Assembly (NCBI GenBank): GCA_965203315.1
Contig: OZ241857.1
Span: forward strand, 1,184,001-1,248,000
DNA length: 64,000 bases
Origin: Nitrosopumilus sp.
Lineage (GTDB): Archaea > Thermoproteota > Nitrososphaeria > Nitrososphaerales > Nitrosopumilaceae
Direction: 5' to 3'
This document shows positions 30,309 through 50,694 of this stretch, in pieces; within the stretch, counting starts at the first letter, position 1, and every line of letters starts with the position of its first letter. A program made the translations under genes and the position numbers. The notes under the pieces were generated by a model that worked only from the letters and a program-made list of their open reading frames with translations, was not told where the DNA came from and made no database searches.

Positions 30309-30462
30309 ATATGTAATGAGCTCTATCCGACTGTAAGCGCGAAACTAGATCTGATATTTGAGCGCGATGTTTCTGTACAAATCCATACTGGATCAAGATG
30401 AAACAAGTATGATGAAAAACAGTTACAGATTTTGCTGTCTAAATATCAAAAAAGGTATGATA

Positions 30463-32043
30463 TTAGGTCTCACGCACAACTCTTAGCATTTCTTCGTATG
30501 GATTGAGTCCTTGTTGCTTCCATGTAGTTATACATGTAAAGATTGAACTCAATCGTTGTCTGCCTTTCTCAGATACGACATGTTGACACGTCTTGCGGAA
30601 TAGCACGAGTCTTCTCAGAGCACGTTCTGCCCGATTGTTTGTCGGCTCCATGCCCGGATGTGTCACGAATGTGTACAGTTCATGTGCAGCATTCTCTAGA
30701 TGAGTACCAAATTTGATATCCATCTTTTTGTATGCAGCTGCAAGCCGCAACGTCTCGCGTATGAGATCGTCTACAGCATATTTGAGATACAGGTCTACGC
30801 AATTGGGATCCTTTGCTTGTAGTCGAGTGGCAATCTCAAATAGTGCATGCAACCTCCGAAACATCATTAATGTACGTACATCACATACTGCACTTTCCGC
30901 GTGTCGCAATACGTGCGCCCAACACCGCTGCCGTATTTTAAACAAAAAATACACCGAATATCCATCACATACGAGTGGTATGTAGACAAATTTTCCAAAA
31001 TTCTCTTTTAGGAATTTCTTTCCACGTGATGGTCCTATCATAAATTGCGTACCATAATCGCCTACCAACACCCAAACCCATCCCAATGCTGCTAAAAGAG
31101 ATAGTGATGTCTCGTCCATGTGTGTATATCTTGACTTTTGGTTGCGTTCTGCAATCTTGTCCGCTTCTTTTTTGAGTCTGTCGCCAACCTCGTTTATTGC
31201 TCCAGTTACCATGTTATGAGAGATACGTGGATCCAAACACTGTAGCGATGTCGTTATTGACTTTATGCTGCTGCCACACTCTCTCATTATGGTCGCCATA
31301 CAGCCTAAATTCACGCCTAGCATTGTATTGTTTAATACATCTGGTATGTTATCTAGCGTGTTACCTGCACTGCCACAACAATTGCAGGCATATTTGTATC
31401 CGTTATGCATTATGACTTTGATATTGCACTCTAAATCCATAGATATTGTGTGTCCAGCGAACACGTTTGTCATATCTTGACTTCCACAATCATCACATTG
31501 TTCTTTTTTATGTGGTACGATCTCGTCTGCAGATATATCGTGTGTGATTCCATCATATCCCTTTGGTCGTCCTACCGGTTTTGGTACGGTTACTAGTTTT
31601 ACTTTTTTTGTACCTGATTTTGGTTTTCGTGATCGTGGAGTATTATGATTATTAGAAATCTCTCCTAGTTTCTCTTTCTCTTTGGCCTGTTCTGTTTGAG
31701 CTTTAATCTTTTCTTGTTTGTCATCTATCTTCTTTTTGGTGTTACGAATCTTGGTCTTGGATAAATTTTCTTCACGTTCAATAATGTTAATCACTTTCTT
31801 AAACGCAGTGATGCATGCAACTATTGCATTAGGTGATACTTGGAGTCCTAGCAGTGCAGTAATCAAAATCTTGTACACCTTTAGCATGTTCTTGCTCTTT
31901 TGTGCTAGTTGTGTTTGAAGAGATTCGACTGCTGCGTCACTCTCTTTCTTGGCATTCTTTAGCTGTGTCATCTCCTTAGCCATTGCTTGTTTCTCTGCCT
32001 TTAGAGTGGCTATCTGCTCTTGGTACGCAAGAATCGTAGACAT
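30463..32043 (-). CDS. IS66 transposase
   Basis: Coiled coil; CDDC..CNCC Zn finger; HMDET, VCDGY, QRCWAH and PTNNRAERALR. Confidence 0.92.
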   Translation of the reverse strand: MSTILAYQEQIATLKAEKQAMAKEMTQLKNAKKESDAAVESLQTQLAQKSKNMLKVYKILITALLGLQVSPNAIVACITAFKKVINIIEREENLSKTKIRNTKKKIDDKQEKIKAQTEQAKEKEKLGEISNNHNTPRSRKPKSGTKKVKLVTVPKPVGRPKGYDGITHDISADEIVPHKKEQCDDCGSQDMTNVFAGHTISMDLECNIKVIMHNGYKYACNCCGSAGNTLDNIPDVLNNTMLGVNLGCMATIMRECGSSIKSITTSLQCLDPRISHNMVTGAINEVGDRLKKEADKIAERNQKSRYTHMDETSLSLLAALGWVWVLVGDYGTQFMIGPSRGKKFLKENFGKFVYIPLVCDGYSVYFLFKIRQRCWAHVLRHAESAVCDVRTLMMFRRLHALFEIATRLQAKDPNCVDLYLKYAVDDLIRETLRLAAAYKKMDIKFGTHLENAAHELYTFVTHPGMEPTNNRAERALRRLVLFRKTCQHVVSEKGRQRLSSIFTCITTWKQQGLNPYEEMLRVVRET

Positions 32044-32228
32044 GACTCTAGTTGGTAAAGGCGGTGTTTAAGTTAGGATATCGCATAAAGTTGTCCTTTT
32101 AGTTTACATTTCTTGACCTACATTCAGATGATAGAAGGCATGTGAGTCGATCCAAGCGATCACCTGTAAATCGATCTAAAAGAGAAAATGCAAACGAACA
32201 GATTACCCATCTAAAAAAGAAAAACAAG

Positions 32229-33236
32229 ATGATCTATATCGGAATAGATGCACACAAGAGGTTTCTGCAAATTGCAGCAATGGATCAGGATGGCAAGCGT
32301 ATACTCAATGAGCGTGTTGCTACAGATCATGACAGTCTCAAAAAATTCTTTGCACAATTTACACCACTCAATACACGTTGTGTGATGGAGTCATCGTCAG
32401 TATGGTATTGGCTGTATAGATACTTGACAGATGAATTGGGATTTGATGTAGTACTATCGAATCCATATCAAACAAAGGCTATTGCCGAATCAAAGAAAAA
32501 GACAGACAAGGTGGATGCATGGACACTGGCAGATCTTTTAAGAGGAAATTATATCTCGCCTTGTTTTGTTCCTAGTGAATACACTGTTAAATTAAAACAG
32601 TTGGTTCGACATAGGGATGTAATTGTAAAGAGTAGAACAAAATACAAGAATCTCATACATGGGATATTACTGCAATATGGGATTAAAATACCTGGTTCAA
32701 GTTTTAGCAAGTCATTTAGAGAGGAATTGAAGAAACTTGAGGATTATAGAATAGACAACTATCTAGATATGATAACTTGCCATGAAGAAATGATTAGACA
32801 ATTGGATATTAAAATGCGTGAGGAGGTAAAGAGATCACAAGATGCACAGCTGTTAAAGACGATTCCCGGAGTTGGAAACTTTGTTGCACTTGTTGTAATA
32901 TCTAGTATTGGAGATGTCAAGAGATTCCCAACTGTTCGTAAGATATGTTCGTATGCAGGAATAGTACCATCTGTTCGTAATTCAGCTGGTAAACAAAATC
33001 ATGGACATATAACGAGGAAAGGTGATAAAATGCTTAGATGGGCATTGACCGAAGCAGTTCATGTACACATAAAATGTGAGCCCCATAGTTACATTACAAA
33101 ATTTCATAACAGAATTAAAAAGAGACGCGCGGTAAGCAAAGCAACTGTTGCAACTGCCTCCAAACTACTACGATTGATGTACCATATGCTTATAGATAGG
33201 GATGATTATGTCACACATTGTAGTCGAAATCATTAA
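32229..33236 (+). CDS. IS110 DEDD recombinase/transposase
   Basis: YIGIDAHK, VMESS, KTDKVDA, TIPGVG and GIVPSVRNSAG. Confidence 0.93.
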   Translation: MIYIGIDAHKRFLQIAAMDQDGKRILNERVATDHDSLKKFFAQFTPLNTRCVMESSSVWYWLYRYLTDELGFDVVLSNPYQTKAIAESKKKTDKVDAWTLADLLRGNYISPCFVPSEYTVKLKQLVRHRDVIVKSRTKYKNLIHGILLQYGIKIPGSSFSKSFREELKKLEDYRIDNYLDMITCHEEMIRQLDIKMREEVKRSQDAQLLKTIPGVGNFVALVVISSIGDVKRFPTVRKICSYAGIVPSVRNSAGKQNHGHITRKGDKMLRWALTEAVHVHIKCEPHSYITKFHNRIKKRRAVSKATVATASKLLRLMYHMLIDRDDYVTHCSRNH

Positions 33237-33416
33237 CGTACGGAAGATGTTTGAGATATCACTCGGCGACCTAAATGTACAGATTTTGACGAATGGACGA
33301 AGAATGATAGTGAGTTAACCACTCGAATGGATATATGTTCGCGGTCCTTTACATGGGAACACATCCCTAGCGTATGCTATGCACAATAGTCGTGAATCAG
33401 AGTAAATCTTTATAAG
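33237..33416 (+). ncRNA. Candidate bridge/seek RNA
   Basis: Non-coding end of the IS110 containing GACCTAA (target match) and ATGGATA (donor match); boundaries approximate. Confidence 0.55.
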
Positions 33417-33516
33417 CTATTCACATGGATAATATCTTACCAAAAAAGTGATTAGTAATGTGTGACTCAGAAACGACGACCCAATGAATTTACCTAGTCT
33501 AAATATCAAAAAGGTA

Positions 33517-33693
33517 GATTCTGTTAATTTGACGGGAGTTGGCATTTTCTGCACAAAATTTTCGAAAAATTTTGCAAAATATGGAAACGGTCTCATATCG
33601 GCGATCGTAAATTGCTGCTGTTTTGAGTCTCATATTGTGCGTTCTTTGATATAACATCATCACGATCTCAACCCTCGCCAATTGAACAGAACC
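33517..33693. mobile_element. 177-bp MITE with GGTTCTGTT-type (IS6-like) TIRs
   Basis: G(A)TTCTGTT...AACAGAACC; inverted homolog at 53666-53840. Confidence 0.85.
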
Positions 33694-48998: not shown

Positions 48999-50694
48999 GT
49001 ATGAGGTTAGGTCTCACGCACAACTTTTAGGAGTGTATCATAGACGTTGAGACCTTGTTGCTCCCATGTTGTTACACATGTAAAGATATTGCCAACTCGT
49101 CGTTTACTCTCCTCAGATACAATACGTTGAGTTACCTTGCGGAATAGCACCATTGATCGTATAGCTCGCTCTGCTCTGTTGTTTGTGTATTCCATACCAT
49201 AGTACAGCACAAACGTGTATAGATCATCTGCAGCATTAGCTAAATGAACTCCAAATTTGCGACAAGCTTCGTTGTCTAGTTTCTTGTACTCTGCTGCAAG
49301 TGATAATGTCTTTTGCACTAGATCATCTACTCTGTATTTTAGGTATATGTCCACATGATTGGGATTGTCCACCTGTAGTGCTTTTGCAATTTCAAGTAGT
49401 TTTTGTAATCTTTTGTACATTAGTACAGTATGTACGTCACACATTGTATCTTTTGCATTTCGCAGTATGTGCGCCCAACAACGTTGCCGTACATTGAATA
49501 GCTTGTACACGGCATATCCATCCGACACGAGTGGTATCAGAATATACTTTTTGAACGTTTTTTCAAGAAACTTTTTTGTACGATCTGGCGATATGATAAA
49601 TTGCGTACCATAATCGCCGACAAGAACCCAGACCCATCCCAATTTCGCAGCAAGGGACATCGACGTCTCGTCCATGTAGATTACCTTGGATTTTAGGTTC
49701 ATTCTCTCTATTTTTTTGACATATTTGTCTAGTTTATCGGCAATCGTGTCTATTGCACCCGTTACCATCTTTTTAGATATACATGGGTCTAGGCATTGAA
49801 GAGTACTAGTTATTGTTCTGATACTACAGCCATTCTTTCTCATTATGGTTGCAATCACGCCTAGAATTGGGCACAACATTGTGTTGTGTAGTATGTCTGG
49901 GATGCTGTCGAATGTATCGCCTGATGCGCCACAATCTCTACAGTTGTAAAAGTATCCTATATGGAGTATGTGCAATATTATGATCTGTATGTCAATCGTT
50001 CTCTTTTGTCTAGACCTCTTGTTGTCAACATGCTTACTGCCACATCCATCACACTTTTCTTTTTTATGATGTTTTGTCTTGTCTGTTTTTATGTTGTCGG
50101 AAACTCCTTTGTGACCCTTGTCTTGTCCTGCTTTTTTCCATTCGCTTTTAGATTTTCTTGTACCCTTTTTTACATGATCTGGTTGTTTTGATGACGGTAC
50201 GTTAGAATTGTCGAGCTGCTTGCGTCTCGTTTCTTTGTTCTTGGCCTGTGCTGTTTGTACCTCTATCTTTTCTTTTTTACCCTCTATCTTTTTTCTGGTG
50301 TTACGAATCTTGGTCTGTGATAGTTGTTGACCACGTTCTATTATCTTGATCATCCTTTGGAATACATTAAAACAATCATTGATTGAATTTGGAGATACTT
50401 GAAGTCCCATAATTGTAGCAAGTAAAATCTCGTACAGTTTCATATTCATTCTCTCATGCTTTGCAACTTGTTTTTGTAGACTCGTAATGGTCTCTTGTTG
50501 TTGTTCGATGGTATCATTTTGCTGCTTGACAGTATCCTCTAGATCTGCTATCTTGGTAGCCGTCTCTCTATCTTTCTTGGCCTTTTGTCTCGCGATCTGT
50601 CTAGACATTGTCATAATTGGTAATGTTTGGATTTAGCCTAGATTATCTAGAAAAGTTGTCCCTTTTGGTAGATCTTTTAAACCTAACCTCGTAC
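48999..50694 (-). mobile_element. Complete IS66-family element
   Basis: TIRs GTA(T/C)GAGGTTAGGT (13/14); perfect 8-bp TSD AGAAAATC at 48991 and 50695. Confidence 0.93.
49007..50614 (-). CDS. IS66 transposase
   Basis: YMDET, VSDGY, QRCWAH and TNNRAERAIR; paralog of 30463-32043. Confidence 0.92.
   Translation of the reverse strand: MTMSRQIARQKAKKDRETATKIADLEDTVKQQNDTIEQQQETITSLQKQVAKHERMNMKLYEILLATIMGLQVSPNSINDCFNVFQRMIKIIERGQQLSQTKIRNTRKKIEGKKEKIEVQTAQAKNKETRRKQLDNSNVPSSKQPDHVKKGTRKSKSEWKKAGQDKGHKGVSDNIKTDKTKHHKKEKCDGCGSKHVDNKRSRQKRTIDIQIIILHILHIGYFYNCRDCGASGDTFDSIPDILHNTMLCPILGVIATIMRKNGCSIRTITSTLQCLDPCISKKMVTGAIDTIADKLDKYVKKIERMNLKSKVIYMDETSMSLAAKLGWVWVLVGDYGTQFIISPDRTKKFLEKTFKKYILIPLVSDGYAVYKLFNVRQRCWAHILRNAKDTMCDVHTVLMYKRLQKLLEIAKALQVDNPNHVDIYLKYRVDDLVQKTLSLAAEYKKLDNEACRKFGVHLANAADDLYTFVLYYGMEYTNNRAERAIRSMVLFRKVTQRIVSEESKRRVGNIFTCVTTWEQQGLNVYDTLLKVVRET

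What the first reader, a model, noticed from the sequence alone, without database searches (positions are those of the whole stretch)
30447..33448. Archaeal IS110/IS1111 inserted precisely into an IS66 terminal inverted repeat, with matching guides in its non-coding end
SEEN: removing 32121-33431 rejoins GACCTA + ATATCTTAC. The result is a 14/15 inverted match to the other IS66 end, and it restores the 8-bp TSD CAAAAAAG. TA is present at both IS110 junctions. The 3' non-coding end contains GACCTAA (33268-33274, equal to the left target + core), AGATAT (33254-33259, antisense to the right target) and ATGGATA (33327-33333, equal to the element's own end + core). The recombinase retains DEDD and the catalytic-Ser motif. 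KNOWN: IS110-family elements use bridge/seek RNAs, and IS4321/IS5075 target transposon TIRs in bacteria. INFERENCE: this is an RNA-guided hyperparasite of IS66 in an archaeon that probably immobilises its host element, and a candidate programmable recombinase with a TA core.
Basis: partly seen in the sequence, partly recalled or inferred. Interest (0 to 1): 0.8.

Follow-up and report, generated by a model that had tools for sequence, protein, structure and literature searches.

The report
Archaeal RNA-guided IS1111 inside IS66 end
A small jumping gene of the RNA-guided IS110/IS1111 kind sits exactly inside the end of another jumping gene in an ammonia-oxidising archaeon, and sister copies in the same genome show its guide RNA changing in step with its landing site; it is a clear new example of a mechanism already known from bacteria.

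Summary
Removing 32121-33431 restores a 14/15 IS66 inverted repeat and the 8-bp duplication CAAAAAAG. The insert is an IS1111-group element (IS110 family) with DEDD and Ser residues intact, in a Nitrosopumilaceae genome.

The genome holds 11 full-length copies in four subfamilies (A-D) plus a more distant fifth (E), each with its own target. The 3' non-coding end folds into two look-alike loops.
- The left-target guide, GACCTAA (33268-33274), is right.
- The donor guide, ATGGATA (33327-33333), is right.
It lies in the apical hairpin and does not change when the target changes. The true one is AAGATGT (33244-33250).
- Across 21 guide families, guides fit their own targets better than any of 20000 shuffles.

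Further corrections:
- The window copy lacks the first 28 bp of the canonical left end, including the left sub-terminal repeat and the likely start codon. It is probably crippled.
- Only 3 of 6 copies of this subfamily sit in IS66 ends.
- Other subfamilies hit an IS6-like end and an IS5-like transposase gene.

This is a new member of a known kind. The extras are inferred only: an archaeal-style junction promoter with a leaderless start, and an unexplained guide copy in the left end. No expression data exist.

The parts
30447..30454 (.). Left copy of the 8-bp IS66 target-site duplication, CAAAAAAG
30455..30469 (+). IS66 left terminal inverted repeat, GTATGATATTAGGTC. On the minus strand it holds an unoccupied GACCTAATATC target (30459-30469).
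   Evidence: It is one of only 3 empty GACCTAATATC sites in the genome.
30463..32043 (-). IS66-family transposase ORF, 526 aa, intact
   Evidence: DDE_Tnp_IS66, 3.3e-28. A second copy at 99% identity lies elsewhere in the genome.
32115..32120 (+). Inner part of the split IS66 right inverted repeat (GACCTA). This is the left half-target plus the TA core.
32121..33431 (+). IS1111-group insertion sequence, 1311 bp. This copy lacks the first 28 bp of the 1339-bp canonical element, including the left sub-terminal repeat ATGTGAA and the GTG at left-end positions 8-10. The boundary can equally be drawn 2 nt to the left because of the TA.
   Evidence: The junction is bridged by contigs of 4 runs.
32128..32134 (+). 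'LE-internal' ATGATAG: a same-strand copy of the donor-loop 5' strand. Its function is unexplained.
32229..33236 (+). DEDD/Ser recombinase, 335-aa core from MIYIGID. The frame is open upstream to 32103. GTG 32142 is the first start left in this copy.
33238..33280 (+). Target-binding loop of the predicted seek/bridge RNA. It has a 4-bp outer stem (GTAC/GTAC), an internal loop and an apical hairpin.
   Evidence: All 4 outer-stem pairs show changes on both sides.
33244..33250 (+). Right-target guide AAGATGT (AAGATAT in the other five A copies). It is antisense to ATATCTT of the IS66 tip. The G would make a G:T wobble.
33252..33265 (+). Apical hairpin TGAG-ATATCA-CTCG.
   Evidence: It is the same in B and is replaced by other sequences that keep a hairpin in C, D and E.
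33268..33274 (+). Left-target guide GACC + core TA + A
   Evidence: B has AAGTTAA, C has AAAATAA, D has TCACTAA and E has AACTTAA, each equal to its own left flank.
33295..33340 (+). Donor-binding loop. It has an outer stem GGACG/TGTTC and an apical hairpin at 33311-33325.
   Evidence: RNAalifold pairs with compensatory changes. The target-loop model also hits this loop in two relatives.
33304..33310 (+). Donor-loop 5' strand ATGAT+AG. ATGAT is antisense to the canonical left-end tip ACCAT with one mismatch. The overlapping GAATG (33302-33306) is antisense to CATTC, the tip of this truncated copy.
33327..33333 (+). Left-donor guide ATGGATA, equal to the last 7 nt of the element
   Evidence: identical in 23 of 23 combinations (16 ATGGATA, 7 ATAGATA).
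33368..33379 (+). Conserved small hairpin TAGC-GTAT-GCTA (loop GTAA or GAAA in relatives)
33409..33415 (+). TTTATAA, a TATA-box-like motif 23 nt before the right end and facing outward
   Evidence: a TATA-like motif at that distance in 20 of 24 right ends.
33420..33431 (+). Right sub-terminal repeat TTCACAT + GGA + TA
33432..33440 (+). Outer 9 bp of the split IS66 right inverted repeat, ATATCTTAC (the right half-target)
33441..33448 (.). Right copy of the IS66 target-site duplication, CAAAAAAG

Best explanation
What it is: 32121-33431 is a copy of an IS1111-group insertion sequence (IS110 family). It sits in a Nitrosopumilaceae archaeon, inserted at a TA dinucleotide 9 bp from the outer tip of the right inverted repeat of an IS66-family element.

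How it most likely works: like the bacterial seekRNA/bridge-RNA elements. The 3' non-coding end is transcribed into an RNA of about 110-150 nt with two look-alike loops.
- In the target loop, the 5' strand (33244-33250) pairs with the top strand of the right half-target ATATCTT. The 3' strand (33268-33274) pairs with the bottom strand of the left half-target GACC plus the TA core.
- In the donor loop, ATGGATA (33327-33333) pairs with the element's right tip plus core. ATGAT (33304-33308) pairs with the left tip ACCAT.
- The DEDD/Ser recombinase then exchanges strands at TA between a circular copy of the element and the target, without making a duplication.

Shown versus inferred:
- Shown here: the anatomy, the precise insertion, the catalytic residues, and the co-variation of guides with targets and ends.
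- Inferred: that the RNA is made, that it binds the recombinase, and that a circle forms.

This particular copy has lost the first 28 bp of the left end (tip, left sub-terminal repeat, probable start codon). It is most likely a defective descendant.
For: Family:
- Pfam domains and catalytic residues aligned to IS621.
- Long non-coding end 3' of the gene.
- A 7-bp sub-terminal repeat ATGTGAA/TTCACAT, with a 7-nt left extension (TAACCAT) and a 3-nt right extension (GGA), in 10 of 11 copies. This matches the IS1111 layout described in PMC11187229 (passages). PMC11208160 gives 7-17 bp for the sub-terminal repeats.

Natural retargeting inside one genome:
- A: GACC-TA-ATATCTT.
- B: AAGT-TA-AAAGAAC.
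- C: AAAA-TA-TTTTCGA.
- D: TCAC-TA-GAATTAC.
- E: AACT-TA-ACCGGTT.
- Each carries guides GACCTAA/AAGATAT, AAGTTAA/GGTTCTGT, AAAATAA/TCGAATA, TCACTAA/TAATTC and AACTTAA/TACCGGT at the same two places.

Wider test with 21 guide families and 29 element/flank rows, including relatives from other genomes:
- The four variable left positions match in 3.39 of 4 for own targets against 1.03 for others.
- The best right 7-mer match is 5.28 against 4.2.
- 0 of 20000 shuffles reach either value.

Guide order: the top-strand-complementary guide lies 5' of the bottom-strand one, as reported for IS1111 seekRNAs (section 9 of PMC11187229).

Guides lie in loops between co-varying helices:
- 90.1% of cells are paired, against 69.9% in shuffles and 38-53% when partners are slid.
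- 6 of 8 pairs show changes on both sides.

Donor guide: it is identical to the right tip in 23 of 23 combinations, with one co-varying position.

Copies with the same non-coding end sit at the same or similar sites, and copies at other sites have other guides.
Against: - There is no evidence that the RNA is expressed. No RNA run was listed and only assembled contigs could be laid.
- No circle junction or empty-site joint was seen.
- Rfam has no matching family.
- The single-sequence fold is no more stable than shuffles (z +1.49), and the minimum-energy fold differs from the model. Only the centroid shows the target loop.
- Right-guide pairing is imperfect. B and C have one true mismatch near the core.
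- One A copy has two extra bases between the core and ATATCTTAC.
- Two relatives (L021, L024) have right flanks that do not fit their guide.
- The 5-nt guide for the left tip has one mismatch in subfamilies A-D.
- The families compared are kin, so the shuffle tests overstate independence.
- The alignment used was fitted to the model and includes two donor-loop rows.
Confidence: 0.85

Rival explanations
1. The window copy is still a mobile element. It would use TA|CATTC as its left end. It would have arrived in the IS66 end as an already shortened circle with junction ATGGA-TA-CATTC.
For: - GAATG (33302-33306) in the donor-loop 5' strand is a perfect antisense match to the new tip CATTC next to a TA. 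The canonical tip ACCAT is matched only 4 of 5 in this subfamily.
- Two other copies show left-junction variants bounded by TA: 14-bp and 53-bp flank duplications. Left-end choice is therefore loose.
- The recombinase core and the whole RNA region are intact.
- The same junction is present in contigs of 3 studies.
Against: - It is the only one of 11 copies with this end.
- It lacks the left sub-terminal repeat, which defines the group.
- It lacks the in-frame GTG at left-end positions 8-10, which 23 of 24 left ends keep.
- A 5-nt match is weak. TA|CATTC is not conserved in subfamilies C and D.
- A simple 28-bp deletion after insertion explains it equally well.
Confidence: 0.2
2. Landing in other insertion sequences is not an adaptation ('hyperparasitism'). 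It would be a by-product: any 11-13-nt sequence present in many copies offers many targets, and insertions there are tolerated because they harm no host gene.
For: - 3 of 6 A copies lie outside IS66, at look-alike sites.
- Only 3 of 48 sites of the B target are occupied.
- C and E have single, apparently non-repeat targets.
- The genome is crowded with repeats.
Against: - Three of the five subfamilies target three unrelated IS families. A hits the IS66 end, B hits the end of an IS6-like element and its small derivatives, and D hits the DDE_Tnp_4 transposase gene.
- A and B both hit 8-9 bp from the tip of an inverted repeat.
- The same habit is known in bacteria. IS4321/IS5075 target Tn21-type ends (title seen in reference lists). 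ISEc21 targets IS3 transposase genes (section 12 of PMC11187229).
Confidence: 0.4
3. Target choice is made by the protein alone, and the matches in the non-coding end are coincidence or shared ancestry.
For: There are no expression or binding data. Single-sequence folding is unremarkable.
Against: Guides change with targets in 21 families, with 0 of 20000 shuffles as good. A and B recombinases are 93% identical yet use different targets, and their RNA differs at just the two guide segments in the target loop.
Confidence: 0.03

Closest known systems
IS1111-family elements with a seekRNA (ISEc11, ISXne4, ISPa11, ISKpn4; Siddiquee et al. 2024, PMC11187229)
   Same: - The non-coding end lies 3' of the DEDD transposase gene.
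- There are sub-terminal repeats with 7-nt left and 3-nt right extensions.
- Two short target matches are present, with the top-strand-complementary one 5' of the other.
- There is no target duplication.
- Close relatives are naturally redirected by changed guide segments (sections 9 and 10 read).
   Different: - The host is an archaeon (Nitrosopumilaceae).
- The sub-terminal repeat is at the short end of the range (7 bp).
- The core is TA.
- Five co-resident subfamilies sit in one genome.
- The recombinase frame appears to start inside the left sub-terminal repeat.
- Nothing here is tested at the bench.
[quoted passage not shown]
   Same: They insert at one fixed position inside the inverted repeat of another mobile element. 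An IS4321 copy next to a Tn3-like transposase gene was fetched for comparison.
   Different: - The recombinase is only 25% identical.
- IS4321 has a 12-bp sub-terminal repeat, and no same-strand copy of a 3'-end segment in its left end.
- The host element is IS66 rather than Tn21.
- The Partridge & Hall 2003 paper was seen only as a title in reference lists. Its details are recalled.
IS621 bridge RNA system (IS110 group; Durrant et al. 2024 PMC11208160; Hiraizumi et al. 2024 PMC11208158)
   Same: - Two-loop RNA, one loop for the target and one for the donor.
- Each loop pairs with both strands around a 2-nt core.
- DEDD plus Ser composite active site. All five residues are conserved here.
   Different: - In IS621 the RNA is in the left end and the guide order is reversed.
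- The IS621 core is CT.
- The recombinases match only weakly (phmmer E 5.6e-10).
- IS621 rebuilds a bacterial sigma-70 promoter at its junction. Here the only candidate is a TATA-like box.
ISEc21 (IS110 family) targeting the DDE region of IS3-family transposase genes
   Same: Subfamily D of this genome sits inside the DDE_Tnp_4 transposase gene of another IS. Three further uninterrupted copies of that site exist. This is the same habit (section 12 of PMC11187229).
   Different: It belongs to a different group (IS110 proper), has an upstream RNA, and is bacterial.

Membership tests
IS110 family (DEDD transposases) | N-terminal RuvC-like DEDD domain and C-terminal Transposase_20 domain | tested here: met
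   PF01548 at 2.5e-29 and PF02371 at 8.7e-24, both above the curated cut-offs.
IS110 family (DEDD transposases) | Catalytic D, E, D, D and Ser present | tested here: met
   D7, E54, D93, D96 and S252 align with IS621 D11, E60, D102, D105 and S241. The Gly after the Ser in IS621 is Ala here.
IS110 family (DEDD transposases) | Site-specific insertion without a target duplication, around a short shared core | tested here: met
   TA lies at both junctions of all 11 copies. Removing the element with one TA restores the IS66 repeat.
IS1111 group | The longer non-coding end lies downstream of the transposase gene | tested here: met
   There are 195 nt between the stop codon (33236) and the right end. 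The left end is short and appears to be coding.
IS1111 group | Sub-terminal inverted repeats (7-17 bp) with asymmetric terminal extensions (7 left, 3 right) | tested here: met
   ATGTGAA/TTCACAT with TAACCAT and GGA in 10 of 11 copies. The window copy itself has lost the left repeat.
IS1111 group | Transposase groups with IS1111-type transposases in a tree | not tested
   No tree was built. The only data are 25% identity to IS4321-type proteins and weak phmmer matches to ISCro4 and IS621.
seekRNA / bridge RNA systems | Guide segments complementary to both strands of the target that change when the target changes | tested here: met
   (0 of 20000 shuffles).
seekRNA / bridge RNA systems | Guides lie in internal loops of a conserved structure | tested here: met
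seekRNA / bridge RNA systems | Donor loop complementary to the joined ends | tested here: met
   The right-tip guide is identical in 23 of 23. The left-tip guide is perfect in 10 of 23, has one mismatch in 12 and fits poorly in 1.
seekRNA / bridge RNA systems | The RNA is expressed, binds the recombinase and is needed for transposition | not testable with these tools
   No RNA holder was listed, and only contigs were available.
IS66 family (the host element) | DDE_Tnp_IS66 transposase, terminal inverted repeats, 8-bp duplication | tested here: met
   It has a single 526-aa ORF and no separate accessory ORFs were seen.

The most novel reading that the evidence does not exclude
In this thaumarchaeal clade the expression switch of IS110-type elements has been rebuilt in archaeal form.
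- A TATA-like box sits 23 nt before the right end. The recombinase frame opens right at the left tip, with a conserved in-frame GTG at left-end positions 8-10, inside the left sub-terminal repeat.
- Only the circular junction would then place promoter and start codon together. The spacing fits a leaderless mRNA that starts at the GTG.
- In addition, the donor-loop 5' strand of the guide RNA is repeated on the same strand 30-42 nt inside the left end, and its variable tail co-varies. This could be a site where the RNA-recombinase complex pairs with the template strand and shuts off its own gene.
Probability: 0.35. Interest if true: 0.6.

Novelty: new member of a known kind. Interest (0 to 1): 0.45.

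Why it matters
- It gives a clean natural experiment. Five related elements in one small archaeal genome have their guide segments rewritten for five targets, three of them other insertion sequences. This supports the view that RNA-guided target choice in IS1111 elements extends to archaea, which the seekRNA paper asserts but did not test.
- The A and B pair is a ready-made swap experiment. Their recombinases are 93% identical, and the RNA differs essentially at the guides.
- A TA core and an AT-rich, mesophilic archaeal recombinase would widen the set of programmable recombinases.
- The pattern bears on how mobile elements police each other in a genome crowded with them. All copies of one IS66 type have split ends, while a sister type whose ends escape the guide has nine intact copies.
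- None of this changes the known mechanism.

Tried and rejected
- Rfam, at a permissive threshold over 32000-33600, gave no family.
- Single-sequence folding of 33233-33400 gave z +1.49. The minimum-energy fold does not show the model, so it is not informative.
- A MAFFT alignment of the whole RNA (A1) misaligned the target loop. RNAalifold found only the donor loop and the small hairpin. I therefore cut out the target loops, aligned them (A2), built model R1 and re-aligned.
- Sequencing runs: no RNA holder was listed. Contigs of 4 runs showed no joint, so there is no circle junction, no empty site and no expression evidence either way.
- I asked whether copies A2, A4 and A6 sit in decayed IS66 copies. 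There is no IS66-like coding sequence next to them and no inverted-repeat partner. It remains odd that A4 and A6 keep the full 9-nt ATATCTTAC, two bases more than the guide covers.
- I looked for a complement of the donor-loop 5' strand elsewhere in the elements and found none. Only the same-strand copy in the left end exists.
- I asked whether the left-end copy is general to IS1111. It is not seen in an IS4321 copy. The Archaeoglobi, Thermoplasmata and bacterial relatives have differently built ends.
- Orphan RNA genes: model R1 finds 13 places in the genome. Twelve are the 12 copies and one is a decayed rearranged remnant on another contig. A second decayed 3' fragment was read.
- Literature: a search for IS1111 + archaea + 'TATA box' + 'circular intermediate' listed no paper holding both IS1111 and 'TATA box'. 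A search for IS110 + archaea + bridge RNA + Thaumarchaeota listed no study of a thaumarchaeal element.
- Supplements were closed. Supplementary Table 5 of PMC11208160 and the supplementary figures of PMC11187229 may list archaeal elements, even this one, and ISfinder could not be consulted. I therefore cannot say the element is unnamed.
- Recounted from the output, the figures are 23 of 24 and 20 of 24.

Full report
**1. The observation.**
- The IS66-family element runs from 30455 to 33440 and is flanked by CAAAAAAG on both sides.
- Its left end is GTATGATATTAGGTC. Its right end is split into GACCTA (32115-32120) and ATATCTTAC (33432-33440).
- Joined, these are 14 of 15 identical to the reverse complement of the left end.
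- The insert carries an ORF with the two Pfam domains of IS110-family transposases. The host ORF (526 aa, minus strand) is a DDE_Tnp_IS66 transposase.
- Aligned to the solved IS621 recombinase, the four acidic residues and the serine that PMC11208158 names as catalytic are all conserved.

**2. Other copies.**
- The window's genome has 2.47 Mb in 7 contigs and 39% G+C. Its kin genomes bear Nitrosopumilaceae or Nitrosopumilus record titles.
- A DNA search gave 18 matches, of which 11 are full length: six at 98-100% (A), three at 93% (B), one at 71% (C) and one at 67% (D). A further intact relative at 51% protein identity is E.
In 10 of 11 copies the element begins 28 bp further left, with TA|ACCATATGTGAAG..., and only the window copy starts at CATTCAG.
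- The canonical element is 1339 bp. It has a 7-bp sub-terminal repeat (ATGTGAA/TTCACAT), a 7-nt left extension if the TA is counted (TAACCAT) and a 3-nt right extension (GGA).
- This is the layout that PMC11187229 gives for the IS1111 family. It lies within the 7-17 bp range of PMC11208160.
- The truncated junction of the window copy is bridged by contigs of four public runs from three studies. It is therefore real DNA, though one of those runs may be the source.

**3. Targets.** TA is the shared core throughout.
- **A:** GACC-TA-ATATC(T/A)T. Only two copies of this IS66 type exist in the genome, and three of their four ends carry an A copy. The window copy holds one. The other IS66 holds one at each end and is flanked by the duplication CACTTTTT.
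  - The remaining three A copies are at GACCTA^ATATCAC, TACCTA^ATATCTTAC and GATCTA^GC-ATATCTTAC, with no IS66 coding sequence beside them.
  - Nine copies of a sister IS66 (66% nucleotide identity) have ends GACCTAACCTCGTAC. These share the left half-site but not the right, and all are uninterrupted.
  - Only three empty GACCTAATATC sites remain in the genome. One is the left end of the window's own IS66.
- **B:** AAGT-TA-AAAGAACC, 8 bp from the tip of a 1469-bp IS6-like element (DDE_Tnp_IS240) and its roughly 170-bp derivatives. There are 45 empty and 3 occupied sites.
- **D:** TCAC-TA-GAATTA, inside the DDE_Tnp_4 transposase gene of another repeat. Three further uninterrupted copies exist.
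- **C and E:** single sites.

**4. The guides.**
- In the alignment of the 11 copies, the 3' non-coding ends of A and B differ in the target loop at only two short segments, and these follow the targets.
- The segment at 33268-33274 reads GACCTAA in A, AAGTTAA in B, AAAATAA in C, TCACTAA in D and AACTTAA in E. Each equals its own left flank plus TA.
- The segment at 33244-33250 reads AAGATAT in five A copies and AAGATGT in the window copy. It reads GGTTCTGT in B, TCGAATA in C, TAATTC in D and TACCGGT in E. Each is antisense to its own right flank, with one mismatch in B and C.
It belongs to the apical hairpin, not to a guide.
- The order matches what PMC11187229 reports for IS1111 seekRNAs, and is the reverse of IS110 proper: the top-strand-complementary guide lies 5' of the bottom-strand one.

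**5. Wider test.**
- A protein search of 101 genomes of the family found matches in 21, in 9 of 27 genera. A scan of named genome records added more.
- From these I extracted 29 distinct element/flank rows in 21 guide families.
- Own guides match the four variable left positions in 3.39 of 4, against 1.03 for other families' targets.
- The best right 7-mer match is 5.28 against 4.2.
- No shuffle of 20000 reached either value.
- The families are related, so these are not independent trials. Two relatives have right flanks that do not fit.

**6. Structure.**
- RNAalifold on the whole RNA recovered the donor loop (outer stem, apical hairpin) and a small conserved hairpin, with compensatory changes.
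- A covariance model of the target loop (R1) found all copies.
- On its alignment, 90.1% of cells are paired, against 69.9% in shuffles and 38-53% when partners are slid. All four outer-stem pairs and two of four hairpin pairs show changes on both sides.
- The alignment was fitted to the model and holds two donor-loop rows. This also shows that the two loops are built alike.
- In the donor loop, ATGGATA (or ATAGATA) is identical to the last 7 nt of the element in 23 of 23 combinations.
- The 5' strand is antisense to the left tip perfectly in 10 of 23, with one mismatch in 12 (including A-D) and poorly in 1.

**7. What this copy is.**
- The window copy keeps the recombinase core (100% identical to sister copies) and the whole RNA region.
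- It lacks the left tip, the left sub-terminal repeat and the GTG discussed below. I read it as a defective descendant.
- Two other copies also have left-junction oddities bounded by TA. These are a 14-bp and a 53-bp tandem duplication of the left flank ending at the core.
- Choice of another TA on the left during circle formation would explain all three.
- GAATG in the donor loop is antisense to the new tip CATTC. That keeps open the rival view that the shortened form arose by an RNA-guided event and may still move.
- PMC12288879 reports several kinds of circle for another IS110-family element (abstract and section 13).

**8. Extras, inferred only.**
- In 23 of 24 distinct left ends (about 17 families; D is the exception) the recombinase frame is open from the second base of the element, with GTG at positions 8-10 in frame.
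- Several families have no ATG before the conserved (I/Y)(Y/F)(V/I)GID.
- A TATA-like motif begins 23 nt before the right end in 20 of 24.
- An archaeal TATA box centred about 26-27 nt upstream of a start is recalled knowledge. It would place the transcription start at left-end position 6-8 of a circle, at the GTG. This would be an archaeal counterpart of the bacterial junction promoter.
- Separately, the 7-10 nt of the donor-loop 5' strand recur on the same strand 30-42 nt inside the left end. The 7-mer is exact in 12 of 17 rows. The variable tail matches at 1.67 of 2 against 0.96 shuffled, with 0 of 20000 shuffles as good.
- I found no account of this feature in the passages I read. It is absent from an IS4321 copy.

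**9. Comparison and verdict.**
- Everything that defines an IS1111-group, seekRNA/bridge-RNA element and could be tested on sequence is met. Expression and dependence on the RNA could not be tested.
- Insertion into the ends or genes of other mobile elements is already known for IS4321/IS5075 and ISEc21.
- PMC11187229 states that IS1111 elements of bacteria and archaea use such RNAs (Discussion passage), although only bacterial ones were tested.
- The finding is therefore a well-supported new member of a known kind.
- For two papers I saw only the abstract and outline (PMC13626964; the 2025 bioRxiv preprint on two pathways). Neither bears on the conclusions.

Noticed in passing
window 48999-50694: A full copy of the sister IS66 type (66% nucleotide identity to the one at 30455). 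Its ends are GTATGAGGTTAGGTC / AACCTAACCTCGTAC and its 8-bp duplication is AGAAAATC. It is uninterrupted. Nine such copies exist in the genome, and none carries an IS1111 insert.
   Followed up: partly
window 30437-30452 and 33497-33512: GTCTAAATATCAAAAA occurs only twice in the whole genome. The two copies bracket the IS66/IS1111 composite as a direct repeat, and the right copy lies about 50 bp beyond the IS66 duplication. This is unexplained. Contig depth rises about 5-fold or more from about 33492 rightwards in all four runs, which suggests a high-copy repeat starts there.
   Followed up: partly
window 32128-32134 versus 33304-33310 (and the same places in relatives): A same-strand copy of the donor-loop 5' strand lies inside the left end, and its variable tail co-varies across families. 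It also lies in the apparent N-terminal coding extension (peptide S-D-G or S-D-D).
   Followed up: partly
G000:C1 left flanks of the copies at 231870-233180 and 1707923-1709227: The left flank is tandemly duplicated (14 bp and 53 bp), ending exactly at the TA core. Together with the 28-bp loss in the window copy, 3 of 11 copies have a variant left junction.
   Followed up: partly
G000:C1:673039-674349: This subfamily-A copy has flanks GATCTA and GC-ATATCTTAC. Two extra bases lie between the core and a perfect 9-nt IS66 tip, and there is no IS66 body on the other side.
   Followed up: partly
L052 and L055 (a Nitrosopumilus genome record): Relatives are inserted into the RNA gene of another copy of themselves. 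One sits right after that copy's own left-target guide and one after its donor guide, giving nested or tandem arrays. The guide sequences, being same-sense copies of target and end, are themselves targets.
   Followed up: no
conserved stretch around window 32186-32204 (AATGCAAACGAACAGATTA): This stretch is nearly invariant at the nucleotide level across relatives whose recombinases are only about 50% identical. It lies in the left end upstream of the conserved catalytic domain. It reads N-A-N-(K/E)-Q-I-T in frame. Conservation at third positions suggests a role in DNA or RNA.
   Followed up: no
G000:C1:936468-936653 and G000:C5:139414-139700: Decayed fragments of the element. One is a 3' piece with a degenerate RNA region. 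The other is a rearranged remnant with an inverted left-end piece.
   Followed up: yes
whole genome G000: The genome is very rich in repeats for a 2.47-Mb Nitrosopumilaceae genome. Many IS families are present at 97-99% identity, among them a 1256-bp element in at least 7 copies and a roughly 1250-bp one in at least 8.
   Followed up: no
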